DNA from: an uncultured virus (IMG/VR IMGVR_UViG_3300044620_001996)
Taxonomy: Duplodnaviria > Heunggongvirae > Uroviricota > Caudoviricetes
Virus record (IMG/VR): IMGVR_UViG_3300044620_001996
Reading direction: 5' to 3' (one strand)
Length of the DNA stretch: 64,000 nucleotides
In this document: piece after piece, positions 1 through 48,765 of the stretch
Layout: every line of letters begins with the position of its first letter
How positions within the stretch are numbered: the first letter of the stretch is position 1
The notes under the pieces: generated by a model
Database searches by the model: none
The model's input: the letters and a program-made list of their open reading frames with translations, nothing else
What the model was told of the DNA's origin: nothing
Made by a program: the position numbers and the translations under genes

Positions 1-1
1 T

Positions 2-1441
2 GCAAATACTATTTACTTTGATACTAGTTTTGGTAGTGCAACGCATGGATCGTTTGAGTTCCGTAGCAGCAATGCTGGAACTACGCGAATGCTTATCGAC
101 ACCTCAGGCCGCCTAGGTCTGGGGACTAGTAGCCCTAGCACTTCGCTGCACACACGAGGCGCGAATAGCACTACTAATTTTACAATCACAAACCTTTCCG
201 CTCTTGTAACCTTACAAGACACTTCCTCCTCTGCCGGAGCCGGGCCAAAGATTGCATTTGGATGCTCGTACGATGGTACAAATACGCTTGGTCAAGCTTT
301 AATTGGCTCATCAAAAGAACCTGGCAGTGGAAGTGGAGGCGATCAATATAGAAACTCGTTAGTTTTTCACACGTCTAATATTGCTTCTGGCGTCAGGGAA
401 ACAATGCGTTTAGACCCAGATGGCAGATTAGGGATTGGCACTACAAGCCCTGCCAGGGTGCTTTCTGTTTATTCGACCAGTTCGATTCCTTGCGATATTG
501 AATCAAGTCAAAATGACAGCTCGCTCCGCCTGATTACGGCTGGTGGAAGTGGGCAAATTTGCGGTATTCAAAACTCATCAGGTAACTTGCTATTTAATGC
601 TTCAGGCTCCGAACGCGCCCGCATTGACAGCTCCGGCAGGTTGTTAGTTGGCACGTCTACTGGTTTTGGCAACTCTACTTTTACAAAAGCGGAGTTTGTC
701 AATAGCGCATCTTATACAAACATTGTAGTAGGTAGAACCGATGGTGCTTCAGGATCAGGCAGCACTATTGGTACGATTTCTTTTTTAAGTAATGCTGGCG
801 GCGCTGGAGAGTATCACGCATCAATAGCAGCAGAAATGGATGCGGCCAGTGGAAGCGGAGACAAACCAGGCCGTTTAGTGTTCTCCACTACCGCCGATGG
901 AACGAGCAGCCCGACGGAGCGGATGAGGATAAATAACGCCGGAAACGTAATTTTCTCAAATCTCGCCGCTGCTTATCCTGCGACTGACAACGCAGTTACT
1001 CTTGGTGCATCCGGCCAACGTTGGTCTGCTGTATGGGCTGCCAATGGAACTATTCAGACTTCAGACGAACGAGCCAAGACAGATATTAACGACGCGCAGC
1101 TTGGTTCCGATTTCATCAAGTCTCTGCGGCCTGTTTCGTACAAATGGATAGAGGGCAGCAAGCGTGATACTGGTGAGCGTGATGAGGACAACAACTATAT
1201 CTATGAATTCGTCCCTGGCACACGCACCCATTGGGGCTTTATTGCCCAAGAGGTAAAGCAGGCCGTTGACGCTGCGGGCGTTGACTTTGGAGGATGGGTG
1301 CTGACTGACAAGGATGACCCCGATAGCCAGCAAGCCTTGCGCTACGACCAATTCATTGCACCGTTGACCAAGGCACTGCAGGAGGCGTTAGCCGAGATCG
1401 AAGCTCTCAAAGCCAAAGTTGCAGCCCTTGAGGGCGCGTAG
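2..1441 (+). CDS. Tail fibre, C-terminal part (5' truncated), with peptidase S74 intramolecular chaperone
   Basis: Frame is open from base 2. Repeats RMLIDTSGRLGLGTSSP, MRLDPDGRLGIGTTSP, ERARIDSSGRLLVGTS. S74 motifs SDERAKTDI and WGFIAQEV, then a C-terminal coiled coil. Confidence 0.9.
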   Translation, partial: ANTIYFDTSFGSATHGSFEFRSSNAGTTRMLIDTSGRLGLGTSSPSTSLHTRGANSTTNFTITNLSALVTLQDTSSSAGAGPKIAFGCSYDGTNTLGQALIGSSKEPGSGSGGDQYRNSLVFHTSNIASGVRETMRLDPDGRLGIGTTSPARVLSVYSTSSIPCDIESSQNDSSLRLITAGGSGQICGIQNSSGNLLFNASGSERARIDSSGRLLVGTSTGFGNSTFTKAEFVNSASYTNIVVGRTDGASGSGSTIGTISFLSNAGGAGEYHASIAAEMDAASGSGDKPGRLVFSTTADGTSSPTERMRINNAGNVIFSNLAAAYPATDNAVTLGASGQRWSAVWAANGTIQTSDERAKTDINDAQLGSDFIKSLRPVSYKWIEGSKRDTGERDEDNNYIYEFVPGTRTHWGFIAQEVKQAVDAAGVDFGGWVLTDKDDPDSQQALRYDQFIAPLTKALQEALAEIEALKAKVAALEGA

Positions 1442-1452
1442 ACCTACTCACT

Positions 1453-1484
1453 AGACCATTTTGTTGATGTCACCAATATGGTCT
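1453..1484. repeat. 32-bp imperfect palindrome
   Basis: AGACCATTTTGTTGA-TG-TCACCAATATGGTCT; arms match 13/15. Confidence 0.8.
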
Positions 1485-1502
1485 GATCGCCCGCGTCAAG
1501 CG

Positions 1503-1546
1503 TATAGTGGTGGGGCAGCGAGTTTGCACCTCCTGCCCCTGGCCAC
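1503..1546 (+). promoter_or_regulatory. -10 box and leader hairpin upstream of the small-ORF array
   Basis: TATAGT at 1503-1508. Stem GGGGCAG (1512-1518)/CTGCCCC (1533-1539), extended by GTGG/CCAC. Confidence 0.5.
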
Positions 1547-1561
1547 AGTTCCCTAGAAACC

Positions 1562-1765
1562 ATGACCTTTGAAGCTTACGACCCCGACCCCGATTTCGAT
1601 CCAGATGGTGGACACTGCCAACACACCGCTTGGGTAAAAAACGGCAGGGTCTTTTTGTCGAACGATGATGACTCGTATTACGAGCAAGATTTCAAGAACA
1701 GAGAGGAACTCCAGAAGTTTGTAGATCACCTCTGGTCCGTAGCCGATGAAGCCTGGCCAGATTGA
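1562..1765 (+). CDS. Small acidic hypothetical protein (cassette 1)
   Basis: 67-aa ORF; its stop abuts the repeat at 1766. Confidence 0.75.
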   Translation: MTFEAYDPDPDFDPDGGHCQHTAWVKNGRVFLSNDDDSYYEQDFKNREELQKFVDHLWSVADEAWPD

Positions 1766-1788
1766 GTAACCATTACCACTAATCACCC

Positions 1789-1998
1789 ATGACAGACCAA
1801 CAAAAACTTGAATACCTTCTTTCTAAGCTCCAAGAAAGCGCAAACTGCAAGCACTGCATTGATGTGTATGGAGATGATTACAGCCCTTCAGACGCTGGAA
1901 ATTATGACGATACTTTCGATGATGGGCGTTGGTATGGCGAGATTGAGTTTGCCCGTGAACTGCTTCGGCATATTGCTGACCAACCTGCAACCCCGTAG
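1789..1998 (+). CDS. Small acidic hypothetical protein (cassette 2)
   Basis: 69-aa ORF starting 6 nt after repeat 2; its TAG lies inside repeat 3. Confidence 0.75.
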   Translation: MTDQQKLEYLLSKLQESANCKHCIDVYGDDYSPSDAGNYDDTFDDGRWYGEIEFARELLRHIADQPATP

Positions 1999-2012
1999 TC
2001 GCTTCCCCTTCT

Positions 2013-2192
2013 ATGCCACAACTCAAACACAAACTGGTTGAACTTGTAGGAGGTGATGCTGATGGCAAGTGCATCCGCATCCCTGCTTATGCTTCCATCA
2101 TTGCCGTTCCTATTGGAAGGGGCAAGAACTACAGGGAACTGGTCTACAACCAAGACGAGGCATCCCCTCAGCGATACTTGTACCAGCCCTAG
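2013..2192 (+). CDS. Small hypothetical protein (cassette 3; not in the ORF track)
   Basis: 59 aa, MPQLKHKLVELVGGDADGK...QRYLYQP; fills the interval between repeats 3 and 4. Confidence 0.7.
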   Translation: MPQLKHKLVELVGGDADGKCIRIPAYASIIAVPIGRGKNYRELVYNQDEASPQRYLYQP

Positions 2193-2224
2193 TAGTCACC
2201 TTCACTAGCGTTTTTACACAAGAA

Positions 2225-2266
2225 AAGCCTGGCCGACACCCTTTTTGTCAGCCAGGCTTATTTTTT
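2225..2266. terminator. Probable bidirectional intrinsic terminator
   Basis: AAGCCTGGC...GCCAGGCTT stem with A and T tracts on either side, between convergent ORFs. Confidence 0.7.
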
Positions 2267-2267
2267 G

Positions 2268-2492
2268 TCAGTCGCGCTTAAGGGTCTCGTCGGCTTGCAT
2301 AATAAAAGCGCTGAGCTGCTCTTCGTAGCCGGGCTCTGGCTTTAGCTCTGACTTGGCCACCTGTTCGTAACCTGCTGCTTCAAGCACTTCGCGCGCAAAA
2401 GCGATGACAGCATCGTCACCGCTGAATTGAACCACGCTGCTAAAGCCGCATGCGTGACCGTACATTATGTTTAGTATTTCGGCGTCGGTCAT
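2268..2492 (-). CDS. Hypothetical protein
   Basis: 74-aa ORF divergent from the recombinase. Confidence 0.6.
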   Translation of the reverse strand: MTDAEILNIMYGHACGFSSVVQFSGDDAVIAFAREVLEAAGYEQVAKSELKPEPGYEEQLSAFIMQADETLKRD

Positions 2493-2521
2493 GGTAGTGT
2501 GTTAGAGCTTTACGCTTAACA

Positions 2522-3376
2522 ATGCGTTTAACCCTATCACAAGCTTGGGACCGCTTCCTAGCCGAGCGCTCGGTTTCACTGTGTCCTACAAGTCTCACTT
2601 CGGACTACAGCCAAACCACAAAATGGCTCCACCGCTGTCCGATTCAAGATGTTGAAGAAGGTCGGCAAGTATTGACTTGGGTTCTCCAGCAGCAGCCCGT
2701 CCTCGCTTCTCGTCGCGTTGCTATGTACGTCAGAAGTATGTACAAATGGTGTGCACAAGAAGATATTGCCATTCTGCAACGCAATCCAGTCGCTAGTTTC
2801 AGGATGCCAAAGCGACCGCAGCGAGACGAAGAAATCATCGTAATTCCGCGCAACGAGGTCGCACTGCTGCTAGTCGCACTCGAGGCGAAACGCACCTATC
2901 GCTCCACAAATTGGAGTGCCTATGCCGAATTTATGCTACAAACCGCAATGCGTACTGGAGAAGTCAGAGCTATGCGTTGGGACGATATTAAAGACGGCAA
3001 GATTTTGGTTCATCAAAATTTTACGCTAACACATGGACTCAAAAACAGCACTAAAACAAACAAAAAACGCTGGGTACCACTTAACCTTCGCGCTAAACAA
3101 ATCATTGAGTCTATAGATCAATCTACCGAGTACGTTTTTCCCTGGGATCGCCTTGCCTTTCAGAGCTACTTCAGAAAGAAAGCGGTCCAGCTTCACGGTG
3201 CGGGCTTGACGTCTCACGTCTACCGTCCATACGACGCCCGCCATACTGCCATCAGCCGCTGGCTCGAAGCTGGCATCCCAGTCACGCAGGTTGCGGCCTG
3301 GGCCGGCAATACTGCAAACGTGATCTTCAAACACTATGCGGGAACTACCCAGGACTACGAGATGCCAGTGCTTTGA
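2522..3376 (+). CDS. Tyrosine recombinase/integrase (no arm-binding domain)
   Basis: TAMRTGE (Arg), TKTNK (Lys), YDARHT (HxxR variant), WAGN, KHYA (Tyr); only 284 aa. Confidence 0.9.
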   Translation: MRLTLSQAWDRFLAERSVSLCPTSLTSDYSQTTKWLHRCPIQDVEEGRQVLTWVLQQQPVLASRRVAMYVRSMYKWCAQEDIAILQRNPVASFRMPKRPQRDEEIIVIPRNEVALLLVALEAKRTYRSTNWSAYAEFMLQTAMRTGEVRAMRWDDIKDGKILVHQNFTLTHGLKNSTKTNKKRWVPLNLRAKQIIESIDQSTEYVFPWDRLAFQSYFRKKAVQLHGAGLTSHVYRPYDARHTAISRWLEAGIPVTQVAAWAGNTANVIFKHYAGTTQDYEMPVL

Positions 3377-3441
3377 ATCGGTAATCCGCCGTGTTTTTTG
3401 GTGGCGATACTGCTAAATTTGCTGTATCGCCACCTTTTCTT

Positions 3442-3756
3442 ATGGCAACCACTTTTGAATGGCACATCGCGAACATGGAGCATTATACGGCGGATGGCGT
3501 CGTATTTACGGTGCATTATACAATCGGCGCCAATGACGGCACTTATAGCAGTTCTGCGTATGGATCTATTGGGCTTGAAAAGCCTGATCCTTCCGCAATG
3601 GTGCCGTATGCCGATTTAACTGAGGAGCTTGTGGTGGGCTGGGTGAAACAAAACTTTGGTGACGACAAAGTCGCTGAAATCGAAGCCGCGCTTCAGCAGC
3701 AACTTGATCAGCAGCATGCACCTACCGTTGCGCCCGGTCTCCCGTGGGCTTCTTGA
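3442..3756 (+). CDS. Tail-fibre-associated small protein
   Basis: MATTFEWHIANMEHY...VHY...YADLTEELVVGWVK...GLPW, a type I recognise as following cyanophage tail fibres. Confidence 0.65.
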   Translation: MATTFEWHIANMEHYTADGVVFTVHYTIGANDGTYSSSAYGSIGLEKPDPSAMVPYADLTEELVVGWVKQNFGDDKVAEIEAALQQQLDQQHAPTVAPGLPWAS

Positions 3757-3851
3757 TCGCCGTCACGGCATCACTGCTAGCCATCGTCATTCTCGGCTTA
3801 ATGATTTGGCAGTGGTGCCATACTTCTGATTGGCAAGATCGTTACTACTAA
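3753..3851 (+). CDS. 32-aa single-TM peptide
   Basis: TTG start overlaps the upstream stop; IAVTASLLAIVILGLMIW. Confidence 0.45.
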   Translation: MIAVTASLLAIVILGLMIWQWCHTSDWQDRYY

Positions 3852-3856
3852 CTAAC

Positions 3857-3881
3857 AGCCGGCGTCAATAGCCGGCTTTTT
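3857..3881 (+). terminator. Intrinsic terminator
   Basis: AGCCGGC-GTCAATA-GCCGGCT followed by TTTT. Confidence 0.75.
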
Positions 3882-3957
3882 ATTGATTTACCCCGAGCCC
3901 GAACCCATTCTAAGGTTATGCACCCATGTAAGCTAACCTCAGCTCCCTAGCGCTTCA

Positions 3958-4095
3958 TTGGCAACAAAAGCAAAAACCGGCACCGGCCGGCTTGACCACC
4001 AAGCTGGTCGCCCCAAGACCACCCGAGACGGGTACGGCCAGAACAGTCGTCCTCGGAGACGCGGCAAGAAAAAACGAGTCGGCCAGGGCCGCTAA
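3958..4095 (+). CDS. Small basic protein ending GQGR
   Basis: TTG start; 45 aa, ATKAKTG...PRRRGKKKRVGQGR, resembling small RGQG-ending cyanophage proteins. Confidence 0.55.
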   Translation: MATKAKTGTGRLDHQAGRPKTTRDGYGQNSRPRRRGKKKRVGQGR

Positions 4096-4126
4096 TCTGA
4101 GAAAAAGGTCAGCGACATGCCTTGTA

Positions 4127-4378
4127 ATGGAGCACTTCGACGAGGCACCCGTTAGCGCCAAACCCCCTGAAAACCCCTTCAACCAAATCGTGCCAGCTCT
4201 GTTGACCGCTGCAGTGGTCGGCCTAGCTGGCCTTTTTATGCAAGTCGCCAAGCTGGACCAGTCCGTCAGCACCGTCGCCGCCGACATCCAAGAACTCAAA
4301 AACGACTCCAAAGAACGGCTCACCGATCTCGAAACCCGCGTGCGTCACATCGAAATGACCGTCGGCAGCAAAAAATGA
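4127..4378 (+). CDS. TM plus coiled-coil protein (possible holin-like lysis accessory)
   Basis: IVPALLTAAVVGLAGLFM followed by a heptad-rich segment; close to the endolysin. Confidence 0.5.
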   Translation: MEHFDEAPVSAKPPENPFNQIVPALLTAAVVGLAGLFMQVAKLDQSVSTVAADIQELKNDSKERLTDLETRVRHIEMTVGSKK

Positions 4379-12294: not shown

Positions 12295-12528
12295 ATGGAC
12301 ACCACACAGCTGCTCGGACGCAACATTCGCTTCCATCTCTTCCGCACCCGGCTAACACTGCGCGATGTCGCCGAAGCCTCTGGCATATCCCCCTACTCCC
12401 TTGGTCGCATGGCCAGTGGCAAAACCAAGCTGATCGATCCCAACGTTCTCGCCGATCTCATGCGTGTCTTCCGCTGCGACGCCAACGCGCTGCTCCTACC
12501 CATAGAGGGCGTCCCCTATGACGGCTGA
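12295..12528 (+). CDS. XRE-family HTH regulator
   Basis: LTLRDVAEASGISPYSLGRMASG. Confidence 0.8.
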   Translation: MDTTQLLGRNIRFHLFRTRLTLRDVAEASGISPYSLGRMASGKTKLIDPNVLADLMRVFRCDANALLLPIEGVPYDG

Positions 12529-13198
12529 CCTCATCCGCGGCCTACCCAAGTACGAACCAGTCCGCTCCCACGAGAACGGTGAACGCAGCTACTCCACACC
12601 ACTCGGATCCTGCAGCTCCGTTACCACAATCCTGAGCGGCACCCGCGATAGCTCCGGCTTACAAGCCTGGCGCGAGTCCGTCGGTGAAGCCCGCGCAGAC
12701 TTCATCTGCAACCTCGCCAGCTTCCGCGGCACCCGCCACCACGACGCTGTTGAGCGCTACCTACTCGACGGCACCGAGCCCGGTTTCGACTTTCTCAACA
12801 CGCCCTACTGGAACAGCACGCGCAGCTTCCTCGACCGCATTCGCCGTCCTCTCGTCTGCGAAGGAGCTATCTACCACCCGCTCCGCTACGCCGGCACGTT
12901 CGACTGCATCGCTTATCTAGAGGACGATGGTGAACAGCCCTCTTTGCTGGACTGGAAAACAGCCGATAAAGTCCGCAACCCAGCAAAGATGTACGAATAC
13001 TCTCTGCAAGTTGCTGCTTACACCGCCGCCGCTAATTACGTCTACAAACCACAAGGCCTAAATATCACCCGAGCGCTGATCGTCGTAGCTATCCCCGACG
13101 AAACACCTCAAATCGAAGAGCTCTCGCTCCGCAAGCTCACCCAGTACATGCAGCACTTCGAGGCTCGCATCAAACGCTTCACCCGGTCCCGCGCATGA
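12518..13198 (+). CDS. PD-(D/E)XK exonuclease
   Basis: SVTTIL, RGTRHH, E, YAGTFD, LLDWKT, QVAAY. Confidence 0.85.
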   Translation: MTADLIRGLPKYEPVRSHENGERSYSTPLGSCSSVTTILSGTRDSSGLQAWRESVGEARADFICNLASFRGTRHHDAVERYLLDGTEPGFDFLNTPYWNSTRSFLDRIRRPLVCEGAIYHPLRYAGTFDCIAYLEDDGEQPSLLDWKTADKVRNPAKMYEYSLQVAAYTAAANYVYKPQGLNITRALIVVAIPDETPQIEELSLRKLTQYMQHFEARIKRFTRSRA

Positions 13199-14589: not shown

Positions 14590-15480
14590 ATGTCGGACCT
14601 CATCTCCCAGTACCTCAGTGACATCTCCCGGCATCCGATCCTCTCGCGCGAAGCCCAACTCCGTCACGCCTATCGCATCCGCGCATGGGTCGACTACACC
14701 CCACCCGGCTCCACCGAGCCCGACCGCTCCGCCGCCCCCGCTCACATTGCACGCCCCGGCAAGCGCTCCCTGGACATCATGGTGCGAACCAACCTGCGCT
14801 TAGTTGTCCACCTCGCCAAGCGCTATCAGAACCGAGGCCTCGAACTCAGCGATCTGATCCAGGAAGGCAGCCTCGGTCTCATCCGAGGCATCGAGCTCTT
14901 TGACCCAACCCGCGGATACGCCTTCAGCACATACAGCTATTGGTGGATCCGCCAATCTATTTCACGCGCAATCTATAACTCCTCCCGCACAATACGGCTA
15001 CCAATAAACGTGCAGGATCTTTCTACCAAGATCAAGCGCGCCATGCACACGCTGACTGCCTCTTACGGCAGACCCCCCTCCATCGACGAGCTCAGCACCG
15101 AGCTCGAGCTTCCCCCTGAGCGCATCACCGAGACCTTGATCAGCTGCACCATTACCAGCTGCACCTCCATTGACGCCCTATGTCAGCTCTCTGATGCCCC
15201 CATCTCCGAGGTACTCAGCTCTGACAACCCGACCCCGTCAGAAAGCCCAGAACTCACCGTATCCCTCATCGAGCGCGAAGAGCTTCTACAAAAAGCCCTC
15301 GCGACCCTCGACCCTACGCAACTCCTTGTGGTCCAAGCGATCCACTTTGAGCAACGCAGCCGCCACGAGCTATCCGACGAGCTCGGTATATCCCGCTATT
15401 GCATCTCATCGATCTACAAAAAAGCTATGCACAAGCTAAGAGTAGAGCTCACTTATAGCTGGGATGCTTTTAACGAGTGA
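14590..15480 (+). CDS. RNA polymerase sigma-70 factor (RpoD/group 2-like)
   Basis: NLRLVVHLAKRY, DLIQEG, FDPTRGYAFSTYSYWWIRQ, RTIRLP. Confidence 0.93.
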   Translation: MSDLISQYLSDISRHPILSREAQLRHAYRIRAWVDYTPPGSTEPDRSAAPAHIARPGKRSLDIMVRTNLRLVVHLAKRYQNRGLELSDLIQEGSLGLIRGIELFDPTRGYAFSTYSYWWIRQSISRAIYNSSRTIRLPINVQDLSTKIKRAMHTLTASYGRPPSIDELSTELELPPERITETLISCTITSCTSIDALCQLSDAPISEVLSSDNPTPSESPELTVSLIEREELLQKALATLDPTQLLVVQAIHFEQRSRHELSDELGISRYCISSIYKKAMHKLRVELTYSWDAFNE

Positions 15481-47754: not shown

Positions 47755-48765
47755 ATGGCCGACTACGCCATCGGGCTGTCGTTCCACAAGGCTCACCGGA
47801 CCCTAGTCCGTGCCGTGGACCTCACCCCTCCCTGCCGCTACTTCGCAACCCGCGACACCGCCGGCATGGTCACCCTGCCCACTCTCGACGCCGGTTCCCG
47901 CTACGTCGAGATCCAAGGTGTCAGCAACACCACCTTCGCCATCAACGACAACAACCAGGAGTTCCGCCTTCTGGGTGACGACGGTTGGGGTGACTCGGTG
48001 ATCACCGGCTCCAGCGTTCAGGCCTCTGTGACTGCCTACTTCCTGAAGGACACAGGCATCCCGGCCGGCCAGAACTGCCCCGTGTTCCGCGGCAACTACG
48101 AAGAGGGCTTTTCTCTTATCGAGAAAGCGCGGTACAACAAGGACTACGAGCTCTACATCGAGTTTCTTAAAGAGCTCGGTCAGGCCAACGGTACTAGCGG
48201 CAACTACATCTACGACTTCACAGGCTTCAACGCCGTCGTGATGAACTACAACGAGAACCTCACCGCAGAGGGTCTCACCGAGGTCTCCTTCGACCTGATG
48301 TCCCGCGGTCGCCCCGTATTCGGCCGCTACGACGCTGGTGCTACCCCCCTGGCCTTCGGTGGCGTGCAGTCGAGCCTGCTGTTCACCTCTGCTACCTCCG
48401 GCACCCGCCGGTATGCGGTTGTGCCGGCTAACAACGCTGACGAGATTGCAGTAGGCGACAACCTCACTGTCACCTACACCAGCGATGGCAGCACTGCGCT
48501 GACCCAGCTCTCCCTGGGCCAGACCAACGGCAGCGGCTTCCGCCTCGAAGTCGCCTCCAGCGGCACTCTTGTCCCTGCTGTCGTATCCCTGGCCAGCAAC
48601 GTCGTCACTATCAACCCCTCTGCCAATCTGGCGGCTGACACCATCTACCGCCTCCGCGTGGCTGACGGTGCCATCAGACAGGCCCTCGACAACAGCGGTA
48701 ACCCCTCTGCTACCGGTGTTCTGTTCCCCCTCCAAGGTTTCGAGACCCTCTTCCGTACGGCCTAA
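47755..48765 (+). CDS. Major tail tube protein with C-terminal Ig-like domain
   Basis: Position; strong codon bias; VTINPSANLAADTIYRLRV (Big-like). Confidence 0.75.
   Translation: MADYAIGLSFHKAHRTLVRAVDLTPPCRYFATRDTAGMVTLPTLDAGSRYVEIQGVSNTTFAINDNNQEFRLLGDDGWGDSVITGSSVQASVTAYFLKDTGIPAGQNCPVFRGNYEEGFSLIEKARYNKDYELYIEFLKELGQANGTSGNYIYDFTGFNAVVMNYNENLTAEGLTEVSFDLMSRGRPVFGRYDAGATPLAFGGVQSSLLFTSATSGTRRYAVVPANNADEIAVGDNLTVTYTSDGSTALTQLSLGQTNGSGFRLEVASSGTLVPAVVSLASNVVTINPSANLAADTIYRLRVADGAIRQALDNSGNPSATGVLFPLQGFETLFRTA

What the first reader, a model, noticed from the sequence alone, without database searches (positions are those of the whole stretch)
1438..3376. Integron-like array of single-ORF cassettes bounded by 17-bp direct repeats beside a tyrosine recombinase
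Seen: four same-orientation sites of consensus GTAGTC-N5-CACTA (1438, 1766, 1995, 2192; site 3 is weakest). Each sits at the stop of the upstream ORF, and the best copy is a dyad, CTAGT-N10-ACTAG. The intervals 1766-1995 and 1995-2192 each hold one promoterless ORF; the first interval also carries a palindrome, a -10 box and a leader hairpin. A terminator closes the array, followed by one minus-strand ORF and a 284-aa recombinase without an arm-binding domain. The block separates the tail fibre from a gene type that usually follows it. Inference: a gene-capture platform (promoter, cassettes, recombinase) with no attC hairpins and no IntI insertion. The link to the recombinase rests on adjacency only.
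Basis: partly seen in the sequence, partly recalled or inferred. Interest (0 to 1): 0.85.

Follow-up and report, generated by a model that had tools for sequence, protein, structure and literature searches.

The report
Swappable gene cassettes in cyanophage genomes
A short conserved DNA junction marks the borders of small genes that lake cyanophages swap among themselves, but the integrase gene next door does not appear to be what moves them.

Summary
In the window alone they are no more than chance. Relatives make them real. The same 16-bp junction, GTAGTC-N5-CNCTW, recurs in 89 distinct arrays from viral contigs. It has four or five fixed centre types kept in one order (114 of 122 neighbouring pairs). 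The upstream stop codon lies inside it (87 of 111) and the next start codon follows 0-8 nt later (81 of 111). The 167 ORFs between junctions fall into 54 families, and some families occupy different slots. Identical cassettes sit between unrelated neighbours. Lake-metagenome contigs break at the sites and join the window's orfB to other partners. A conserved head element (-10-like box plus hairpin) and a terminator frame the array as its own operon. The integron reading fails on the recombinase. Only 2 of 55 arrays found through the site have the Int homologue. Other array-bearing phages carry a serine recombinase, a different integrase, or neither type searched for. There are no attC-like hairpins and no IntI. 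Most likely these are recombination linkers for module exchange between co-infecting phages, like T4 PeSLs. A dedicated site-specific mechanism is not excluded.

The parts
2..1441 (+). 3' part of a tail-fibre gene. Its stop codon TAG 1439-1441 lies inside junction site 1.
   Evidence: phrog_18345 tail fibre, E 4.7e-41. PF13884 chaperone of endosialidase, E 7.3e-14.
1438..1453 (+). Junction site of type 1 (centre CTACT; left-arm variant GTAGAC).
   Evidence: The same type follows the tail-fibre stop in L005, L010, L014, L015, L016 and, more degenerate, L004.
1454..1483 (.). Palindrome GACCAT-N18-ATGGTC just after site 1.
   Evidence: Near-identical in L010, L025 and L199 only. Function not tested.
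1503..1561 (+). Head element of the array: -10-like TATAGT (1503-1508), conserved hairpin (1507-1546), then a leader running into the orfA start ATGACC.
   Evidence: Conserved in 31 further distinct loci, with varied DNA upstream and varied ORFs downstream. On the 29-sequence alignment, 97.1% of cells pair against 37-65% when partners are slid, and one pair is A-U in 21 and G-C in 8. Promoter activity is inferred, not shown; the sigma-70 consensus scan did not call it.
1562..1765 (+). orfA, 67 aa, no known family. First ORF of the array.
   Evidence: Homologue (60% identity over 47 aa) in the same slot of L005.
1766..1781 (+). Junction site of type 2 (centre ATTAC; left-arm variant GTAACC, which travels with orfA-type upstream ORFs).
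1789..1998 (+). orfB, 69 aa (cassette family F4).
   Evidence: The family is seen in slots 2-3 (3 times), 3-4 (once) and 1-3 (once). A 100% identical copy sits between unrelated neighbours (L002 against L131). In run X2 its contig has depth 40.9 against 4.6-10.2 for its neighbours.
1995..2010 (+). Junction site of type 3 (centre GCTTC; right-arm variant CCCTT).
2013..2192 (+). orfC, 59 aa (cassette family F6).
   Evidence: The family is seen in slots 3-4 (twice) and 1-4 (once).
2192..2207 (+). Junction site of type 4 (centre ACCTT), the last of the array.
2225..2259 (.). Terminator hairpin (14 pairs) between the convergent orfC and orfD.
   Evidence: A hairpin of another sequence follows type-4 sites in many relatives.
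2268..2492 (-). orfD, 74 aa, no known family. Not part of the array; it goes with the Int module.
   Evidence: Homologues lie next to Int in L003 (70%) and L017 (41%).
2522..3376 (+). Tyrosine recombinase (Int), 284 aa, Xer-sized. An independent module, not a defining part of the array.
   Evidence: PF00589, E 1.6e-14. phrog_1 integrase, E 9.8e-38. Weak XerD/XerC model hits far below their cut-offs. 70% identical to the S-LBS1 integrase.
3400..3434 (.). Conserved hairpin in the Int-DUF7936 spacer.
   Evidence: The 65-nt spacer is conserved in 7 Int-bearing loci. Role unknown (terminator or att candidate).
3442..3756 (+). DUF7936 gene, the usual right-hand neighbour of the array.
   Evidence: PF25590, E 1.6e-36. 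Lies within 400 bp after the last junction in 23 of 55 site-seeded arrays.

Best explanation
The four sites are copies of a conserved intercistronic junction about 17-20 bp long (cA-GTAGTC-N5-CNCTW-at). The junction bounds exchangeable modules, mostly single ORFs, inside a small accessory operon.

In the window that operon sits between the tail-fibre gene and DUF7936. It has its own head element (a -10-like box and a 5' hairpin) and its own terminator.

The junction carries the stop codon of the upstream ORF in its left arm and is followed at once by the next start codon. Its 5-nt centre comes in a few fixed types that keep one order along the array.

I read the junctions as recombination linkers. 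When related phages co-infect a cell, crossovers fall inside the junction. Whole ORFs are then swapped, lost or gained without breaking frames or the operon.

Different centres at neighbouring junctions leave at most 6-7 bp of unbroken identity within one genome. That should disfavour self-deletion, while the same junction type in another genome offers 12-25 bp.

The enzymes are most likely general short-homology recombination functions of phage or host, as proposed for PeSLs of T4-type phages. The neighbouring Int is a separate integrase module lodged in the same hot spot.

Shown: the junction's conservation, geometry and order; varied ORF content; identical cassettes in different contexts; lack of a constant recombinase. 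Inferred: that junctions are where crossovers occur, the role of the centre, and the kind of enzyme.
For: Recurrence:
- The same four centre types recur in relatives found through Int, not through the motif.
- Of 264 loci examined, 105 have at least 2 chained sites, giving 89 distinct arrays and 122 intervals.
- Order is ascending in 114 of the 122 pairs, the same type in 5 and descending in 3.

Geometry:
- The upstream stop is the TAG of the site in 87 of 111 intervals that hold an ORF.
- The next start codon lies 0-8 nt after the site in 81 of 111.

Content:
- 82 of 122 intervals hold one ORF.
- 167 ORFs fall into 54 families, 40 of them singletons. Families occur in more than one slot.

Recent exchange:
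- 11 pairs of equal-length intervals are at least 97% identical. In 4 the left flank is unrelated and in 5 the right flank is unrelated.
- Left-arm variants follow the left neighbour and right-arm variants follow the right neighbour.
- Hybrid junctions exist in L003, L011 and L012.
- In four lake-water runs, contigs end at 1452, 1759/1782, 2006/2010 and 2188/2191. Loose ends join orfB to two other left partners and two other right partners.

Independence from Int:
- 2 of 55 site-seeded arrays have the Int homologue.
- No integrase was found among 115 ORFs of 14 loci.
- The genomes differ in recombinase type or have neither type searched for.

Local element: in five whole contigs the sites occur only in the arrays, 11 matches against 0 for the reversed control.

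Precedent: PeSL-mediated shuffling (PMC2839356, abstract and section 14 read; PMC4122927, abstract read).
Against: - The uninterrupted identity on offer (5-12 bp when arms or centres differ, up to about 25 bp with the shared leader) is short for ordinary homologous recombination.
- Passive linkers do not explain why unrelated slots share the same two arms, or why 11 positions stay nearly fixed.
- Some F0-F1 gene pairs are joined by an overlapping ATGA with no junction. The junction is therefore not needed for expression, and nothing forces its conservation there.
- No recombination intermediate or product was observed directly.
- The pattern-seeded sample is biased towards exact type-2 and type-4 sites. 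A reversed 16-mer control gave 84 loci against at least 121, so raw hit counts carry no weight.
- My first pass mis-oriented some loci and was redone.
Confidence: 0.5

Rival explanations
1. The junctions are core sites for a dedicated site-specific recombinase. Two short arms (AGTAGT / ACTAAT, an imperfect dyad) flank a 7-bp centre (C-N5-C) in which strands are exchanged. Different centres make neighbouring sites incompatible with each other but compatible with the same type in another genome. The result would be ordered cassette exchange, a natural counterpart of engineered exchange with heterospecific sites. The enzyme would be a simple Xer-sized tyrosine recombinase: the window's Int acting in cis or in trans, or a host enzyme.
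For: - The pattern is bipartite, with fixed arms and a variable centre. Flanking positions 0, 17 and 18, which were not part of my search pattern, are conserved, and two of those three extend the dyad.
- Arm variants segregate with their own flank, which places exchange in the centre.
- Hybrid junctions between different types share only 5-6 bp.
- The same cassette occurs behind two different centres (L209 against L246).
- Int is Xer-sized with no room for an arm-binding domain; its alignment to the XerD model starts at residue 26.
- In the minimal loci L014-L016 and S-LBS1, the only sizeable non-coding DNA beside int is the 82-87 bp stretch that holds a junction.
Against: - No recombinase is constant. 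Int is present in 2 of 55 site-seeded arrays. A serine recombinase, a different tyrosine integrase, or neither type is found in other array-bearing genomes.
- The dyad is only 4-5 bp per arm. Right-arm position 13 varies freely with no compensating change.
- The arm/flank pattern is also what short-homology recombination would leave, because homology ends at the junction.
- Host genomes could not be searched for a matching site or enzyme.
Confidence: 0.25
2. The junctions are first of all expression signals of a conserved operon: stop context, an unstructured pyrimidine-rich leader for re-initiation without a Shine-Dalgarno sequence, or an RNA-processing site. Gene replacement happens by rare illegitimate events that selection trims to ORF borders, and the conserved spacers survive simply because they work.
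For: - The geometry relative to stop and start codons is fixed.
- All sites point the same way as the genes. The longest ORF is on the site strand in 96 of 115 intervals.
- The commonest content, F0 in slot 2-3 and F1 in slot 3-4, looks like one ancestral operon.
- The head element is a conserved promoter-like box plus RNA hairpin.
Against: - The same F0-F1 pair works with an ATGA overlap and no junction.
- The window's sites show no RNA or DNA structure, and region 1-4200 gave no Rfam match with E below 0.46.
- Illegitimate events would not leave a perfect 16-bp junction between many unrelated left and right contexts.
- They would not give 100% identical cassettes in different contexts within single lake samples either.
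Confidence: 0.2
3. Chance resemblance of four short intergenic stretches that all contain a TAG stop codon.
For: The window alone gives no significance.
Against: The sites are conserved exactly, type by type, across 89 arrays with unrelated flanks. In the seed loci there are 178 additional same-strand sites. On the other strand there are 68, of which 46 are two conserved tail-fibre coding sequences. My analytic estimate of the chance expectation is about 11 per strand.
Confidence: 0.02

Closest known systems
PeSLs (promoter-early stem-loops) of T4-type phages (PMC2839356, abstract and section 14 read; PMC4122927, abstract read)
   Same: Both are conserved short intergenic elements running from the stop of one small ORF to the start of the next. 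Both are concentrated in variable regions full of ORFs of unknown function, and both mark the points where closely related phages differ by insertion, deletion and replacement. The window's head element (-10-like box plus stem-loop) resembles a PeSL in make-up.
   Different: The junctions have no promoter and no stem-loop and are only about 17-20 bp. They are bipartite, with a typed centre kept in a fixed order. They occur in cyanophages of siphovirus and podovirus size classes rather than T4-type myoviruses. Mini-circles, shown for PeSLs, were not looked for successfully here.
Integrons (attI/attC, IntI); features recalled from general knowledge
   Same: Both are same-orientation arrays of mostly single, promoterless ORFs. 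The boundary element overlaps the ORF end, a promoter sits at the head of the array, and cassette content differs between relatives.
   Different: There is no IntI and no folded attC. The recombinase is usually absent and, where present, lies downstream and points the same way. The junctions are 16-bp duplex-type sites of a few fixed types in a fixed order, whereas attC sites are variable and order is free.
pdif modules of Acinetobacter plasmids, and elements that exploit host Xer (recalled, not tested)
   Same: Gene modules are bounded by short recombinase-type sites with no recombinase gene in the module. A host enzyme is the presumed agent.
   Different: pdif sites are 28 bp with 11-bp arms and alternate in orientation. 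Here the sites are 16 bp and all point one way. No host site or enzyme could be examined.
Morons and boundary sequences of lambdoid phages (recalled)
   Same: Both are autonomous units (promoter, gene or genes, terminator) lodged between late genes and the att/int region. Short conserved sequences lie at module borders.
   Different: Here several ORFs share one unit and are separated by a defined, typed junction.
Engineered cassette exchange with heterospecific lox/FRT sites (recalled)
   Same: Shared arms with different centres would allow exchange only between like sites and would keep order.
   Different: This is purely an analogy. No recombinase has been shown to act on the junctions.
Start-associated sequences of cluster K mycobacteriophages (recalled)
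   Same: A short conserved motif lies just upstream of many start codons in one phage group.
   Different: Those motifs are spread genome-wide and are thought to act in translation. Here the motif is confined to one array per genome and coincides with exchange points.

Membership tests
Integron | Integron-type integrase (IntI clade with its extra domain) | tested here: not met
   Int hits PF00589. In NCBIfam it hits only XerD, XerC and XerA-type models at 16-31 bits, against cut-offs of 220-335, and no integron-integrase equivalog. It is 284 aa long.
Integron | attC sites: imperfect inverted repeats that fold as single strands | tested here: not met
   The four window sites with flanks, folded as ssDNA, give -0.3 to -1.9 kcal/mol and z-scores of 0.04, 0.32, 0.55 and -1.34 against shuffles. 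Arm variants are not compensated.
Integron | Integrase gene next to the insertion site at the head of the array, with a promoter reading into the cassettes | tested here: not met
   Int lies after the last site and points the same way. It is absent from 53 of 55 site-seeded arrays. A promoter-like head element does exist.
Integron | Cassettes excised as circles and re-inserted | not testable with these tools
   All runs were available only as assembled contigs. No circle joint was listed, and contigs cannot show rare forms.
PeSL-type shuffling elements | Sigma-70-like promoter plus stem-loop in each element | tested here: not met
   No + strand promoter-like site was called in 1300-3900. The junctions form no hairpin. 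Only the head element combines a -10-like box with a hairpin.
PeSL-type shuffling elements | Elements lie between stop and start of small variable ORFs and coincide with indel and replacement points between close relatives | tested here: met
Tyrosine-recombinase core site | Inverted-repeat arms around a 6-8 bp centre | tested here: inconclusive
   The arms AGTAGT and ACTAAT match in 5 of 6 positions around C-N5-C. However, only 4 bp are a strict dyad and position 13 varies.
Tyrosine-recombinase core site | Co-occurrence with its recombinase | tested here: not met
   Int is present in 2 of 55 site-seeded arrays. Searches agree.
Tyrosine recombinase (the Int protein itself) | Catalytic domain with the conserved Arg, His-x-x-Arg region and C-terminal Tyr | tested here: met
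   PF00589 matches residues 110-272. R144, R240, H241, W260 and Y272 are invariant in 10 homologues. Assigning these residues to catalytic roles is inference.
Moron-like autonomous unit | Own promoter and own terminator, lodged between late genes | tested here: inconclusive
   The terminator is called. The head element has a -10-like box, and in several relatives a terminator lies just before it. No transcript data were available.

The most novel reading that the evidence does not exclude
The junctions are natural heterospecific recombination sites: a family of minimal core sites with shared arms and a few mutually incompatible centres. A simple Xer-like recombinase would act on them, either phage Int in trans or a host enzyme. 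This would give cyanophages an ordered, register-keeping cassette-exchange system. It would be integron-like in outcome but would work on duplex sites and need no resident integrase.
Probability: 0.25. Interest if true: 0.85.

Novelty: new variant of a known kind. Interest (0 to 1): 0.68.

Why it matters
How phages shuffle their many small genes of unknown function is mostly explained by illegitimate recombination plus selection. PeSLs are one of the few defined elements known to be involved.

Here a defined, typed 16-bp junction marks the exchange points in at least 89 distinct arrays, from lake cyanophages of several genome types.

This gives a concrete sequence to test for how accessory genes next to the host-range (tail-fibre) module are traded in natural populations. 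It also gives a simple marker for finding and cataloguing such accessory genes in metagenomes.

If a dedicated enzyme acts on the junction, it would be a new natural cassette-exchange system and a possible tool.

I found no description of this junction in five full-text searches, nor in the S-LBS1 paper (PMC6157547, passages read). The library does not hold most subscription journals, and I read no supplementary files.

Tried and rejected
- Window-only statistics are not significant.
- Raw counts of the exact 16-mer in viral contigs carry no weight. Of the 121, 67 had neither a second site nor a homologue.
- Promoter for a T7-type phage RNA polymerase: type 1 recalls the core of such promoters (from memory). 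Rejected, because sites occur only in the arrays of five whole contigs and only 1 of those 5 encodes PF00940.
- Hairpin or attC-like folding: none.
- Rfam on 1-4200 gave only a sub-threshold Trp-leader hit at 3801-3884. No tRNA or tmRNA gene in the window could point to an att site.
- Prophage or attB search: the Int profile found only two MAG contigs in bacterial genomes. Both look like phage contigs (Int, DUF7936 and, in L264, an endolysin), and one begins exactly at a type-4 site. No integrated form was found.
- The window's own assembly is not held, and the nearest record, G001, does not cover the locus.
- Contigs laid on 1-4000 showed no circle joint of a cassette. One joint, 1793 to 1995, has a side of only 21 letters and unknown letters between, so I give it no weight.
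- DUF7936 as a hidden recombinase: the model is good (pLDDT 90.2) but has no PDB fold match at E <= 0.001.
- Cassette families F0-F13: only F0 (phrog_32006) and one zinc-ribbon-like ORF (F9) hit anything, and both hits are of unknown function.
- The first-pass array census chose the strand by total hits. Conserved tail-fibre coding look-alikes on the other strand flipped some loci. It was redone using only the five centre types.

Full report
**What the window is.** The 64-kb window is a siphovirus-type cyanophage genome or a large part of one. It encodes terminase, portal, tape measure, tail fibres, DNA polymerase, a primase-helicase, a sigma factor and thymidylate synthase. Its nearest cultured relatives are Synechococcus phages. 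DNA runs that hold the locus are mostly labelled lake water. Bases 1-4000 have 48-51% G+C, against 62% in the next kilobase and mostly 55-70% over the rest of the window.

The gene order at the locus is:
- tail fibre (to 1441);
- orfA (1562-1765), orfB (1789-1998) and orfC (2013-2192);
- a terminator hairpin (2225-2259);
- orfD on the other strand (2268-2492);
- a 284-aa tyrosine recombinase, Int (2522-3376);
- DUF7936 (3442-3756);
- a small membrane-like ORF, then lysis genes.

**Check of the observation.** On the window's evidence alone they could be chance. There are 13 matches at up to two mismatches against 9.9 expected. A four-member family with this mask arises in 96 of 400 simulated 901-bp regions. 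Part of the motif is simply the TAG stop codon.

**Relatives found through Int.** I fetched 19 viral-contig loci encoding Int relatives (62-100% identity) and the cultured phage S-LBS1. The motif recurs upstream of Int in these loci. Each of the window's four sites also has its own counterpart, recognisable by the 5-nt centre:
- CTACT after the tail-fibre stop;
- then ATTAC;
- then GCTTC;
- then ACCTT nearest Int.

Distances between sites differ from locus to locus. The window's orfB and orfC have no tblastn match in most relatives. Some relatives (L014-L016, S-LBS1) have a single site 82-87 bp before Int and no ORF in between.

**Wider sampling.** A reversed-motif control returned 84 loci, so many single hits are chance. 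The evidence therefore has to come from context, and the context is strong.

The type-2 site is followed in dozens of loci by the same 7-nt leader and a start codon. It is preceded by at least 25 different sequences, and it also precedes at least 8 different ORF starts. Type 4 shows the same pattern and is often followed by a hairpin.

**Census of arrays.** My first census chose the strand wrongly in some loci. Two conserved tail-fibre coding sequences mimic the motif on the other strand. The corrected census examined 264 loci.
- 105 loci have at least two chained sites, giving 89 distinct arrays and 122 intervals.
- Order is ascending in 114 of 122 pairs, the same type in 5, and descending in 3.
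- 82 intervals hold one ORF and 11 hold none.
- The upstream stop is the TAG of the site in 87 of 111 intervals that hold an ORF.
- The next start codon lies 0-8 nt after the site in 81 of 111.
- The 167 ORFs fall into 54 families, 40 of them singletons.

Two families dominate: F0 (phrog_32006, unknown function), mostly in slot 2-3, and F1, mostly in slot 3-4. Families are not tied to slots. The window's orfB family occurs in slots 2-3, 3-4 and 1-3, and the orfC family in 3-4 and 1-4. In five whole contigs the sites occur only in the arrays (11 matches, 0 for the control).

**Evidence for recent exchange.** Eleven pairs of equal-length intervals are at least 97% identical. In four the DNA left of the left junction is unrelated, and in five the DNA right of the right junction is unrelated.
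- A 100% identical orfB sits between different neighbours on both sides.
- A two-cassette block is identical in L010 and L025 with unrelated flanks.
- One cassette sits behind two different centres.

Hybrid junctions exist: the left arm and centre of one type are joined to the right arm and downstream DNA of another (L003, L011, L012). Across 186 distinct junction contexts, left-arm variants follow the left neighbour, right-arm variants follow the right neighbour, and the centre follows both.

In contigs of four lake-water runs laid on 1-4000, pieces end at 1452, 1759/1782, 2006/2010 and 2188/2191, which is at the sites. Loose ends attach orfB to two other upstream and two other downstream partners, all known from the fetched loci. 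In run X2 the orfB piece has depth 40.9, against 4.6-10.2 for its window neighbours. These are assemblies, so they show linkage variants but not rare molecules.

It is conserved in 31 further distinct loci, with varied DNA before it. In several loci a terminator-like hairpin with a T-run lies just before it. Different ORFs follow it, yet they share their first six codons.

On a 29-sequence alignment, 97.1% of cells pair, against 37-65% when the partners are slid. One pair is A-U in 21 sequences and G-C in 8, probably a single event.

Together with the closing terminator, this makes the array a self-contained unit. Promoter activity is inferred. The consensus scan did not call a promoter there, and no RNA data were available.

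**The recombinase.** Int is a genuine tyrosine recombinase. It is Xer-sized, with weak matches to Xer models starting at residue 26 and no solved relative by sequence.

Its link to the array does not hold.
- Among arrays found through the site, 2 of 55 with enough downstream DNA have an Int homologue. DUF7936 follows the last junction directly in 23 of 55.
- L022 is 99-100% identical to the window from 4127 onward, yet it has an array, no Int, and a different DUF7936 allele.
- Fourteen arrays lie in quite different contexts: nucleotide metabolism, replication, or next to terminase. None of their 115 ORFs is an integrase.
- Of three near-complete array-bearing genomes, one has a different tyrosine integrase about 4 kb from the array plus a T7-type RNA polymerase. 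One has a serine recombinase about 3 kb away and no PF00589. One has neither recombinase type.

In relatives, Int has its own terminator and -10-like box just upstream. I read Int as an ordinary integrase module sitting in the usual place, between the tail-fibre end of the late genes and the lysis genes.

Its own att site was not found. The S-LBS1 paper proposes two sites elsewhere and does not mention the junction (PMC6157547, passages read). The bacterial-genome scan gave only two phage-like MAG contigs.

One caveat remains. In the minimal loci the only sizeable non-coding DNA beside int contains a junction, so Int acting on junctions cannot be excluded.

**Mechanism.** Three readings remain.

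1. *Recombination linkers (my preferred reading, 0.5).* Junctions are used by general short-homology recombination between co-infecting phages, as argued for PeSLs (PMC2839356, PMC4122927). The typed centre limits identity between neighbouring junctions of one genome and preserves it between like junctions of two genomes. That fits the kept order. The window and some relatives encode a PD-(D/E)XK exonuclease, but I found no annealing protein.

2. *Dedicated site-specific recombination (0.25).* This is supported by the bipartite shape, a weak dyad that extends into positions I did not select for, and joints across only 5-6 bp of identity. It is opposed by the lack of any constant enzyme and by the short, loosely symmetric arms.

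3. *Expression signal with incidental exchange (0.2).* This is supported by the fixed geometry and orientation. It is opposed by F0-F1 pairs that do without the junction and by the clean junctions between unrelated contexts.

The arm/flank pattern does not separate the first two readings, because homology ends at the junction in either case.

**Comparison with known systems and novelty.** In outcome the array resembles an integron. However, it fails the three integron features I could test (integrase type, attC folding, platform layout), and the fourth (circles) could not be tested.

It shares with PeSLs the position between small variable ORFs and the coincidence with exchange points, but the junctions lack the promoter and stem-loop that define PeSLs. 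Only the head element has that make-up.

I file it as a new variant of the known kind 'conserved intergenic elements that mediate modular shuffling in phages'. Five full-text searches found no description of it. The library is incomplete, and I read no supplements.

**Verdict.** The cassette architecture with head and terminator is supported. The integron and recombinase mechanism is not supported.

Noticed in passing
window 1503-1561; 31 further loci (e.g. L044:3751-3846, L160:1289-1384): A conserved element of a -10-like box, hairpin and leader heads the arrays. The ORFs behind it differ but share their first six codons (MTQE[DE]Y-like). It could be a promoter with a 5'-terminal stabilising hairpin, or a regulatory RNA.
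   Followed up: partly
window 1-4000: The block of tail fibre, array, Int and DUF7936 has 48-51% G+C, against 62% in the next kilobase and mostly 55-70% over the rest of the window. It looks like a module acquired from other phages. The tail-fibre genes at 55-61 kb are also low in G+C.
   Followed up: no
window 429-444 and 876-891 (minus strand): Two motif look-alikes inside the tail-fibre gene are conserved coding sequence. They recur in 23 and 20 relatives' loci and can flip strand assignment in automated searches.
   Followed up: yes
G002 (contig of L036 and L041), 1672-2057 and 47943-48153: A 100%-complete T7-like podovirus contig carries a type 2-4 array at each end, with different cassettes (site spacings 370 and 195 bp). 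It looks like two population variants assembled on the overlapping ends of a permuted genome.
   Followed up: partly
L198, L058, L084: phrog_32006 (family F0) occurs in up to five copies per locus. In some copies F0 and F1 are joined by an overlapping ATGA with no junction. In others a type-3 junction sits between them.
   Followed up: partly
window 3442-3756: The DUF7936 model (pLDDT 90.2) has a three-stranded sheet packed against two helices. It has no PDB fold match at E <= 0.001. It is the usual right-hand neighbour of the array and may be tied to the tail fibre.
   Followed up: partly
window 3377-3441: The 65-nt spacer between Int and DUF7936, with hairpin 3400-3434, is conserved in seven Int-bearing loci whose Int identity ranges from 76 to 100%. 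It may be a terminator or a candidate att region.
   Followed up: no
L264 and L265: Two contigs binned in a Hyphomonadaceae MAG and a Methylacidiphilales MAG carry Int and DUF7936 (L264 also an endolysin), so they are probably mis-binned phage DNA. L264 starts exactly at a type-4 site, as if the assembly broke there.
   Followed up: partly
G005:C1:5400-5813: A complete array-bearing phage genome has a 454-aa serine recombinase about 3 kb from its array, where the window has a tyrosine recombinase.
   Followed up: no
L014:42-123, L015:3719-3800: Between the single junction and Int lies a TTGACA...TACCAT promoter-like stretch, followed by a second, degenerate junction-like sequence about 25 nt before the Int start.
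   Followed up: no
window 14590-15480 and 12518-13198: The phage encodes its own RpoD-like sigma factor and a PD-(D/E)XK exonuclease. Either could bear on expression of the array or on recombination at it.
   Followed up: no
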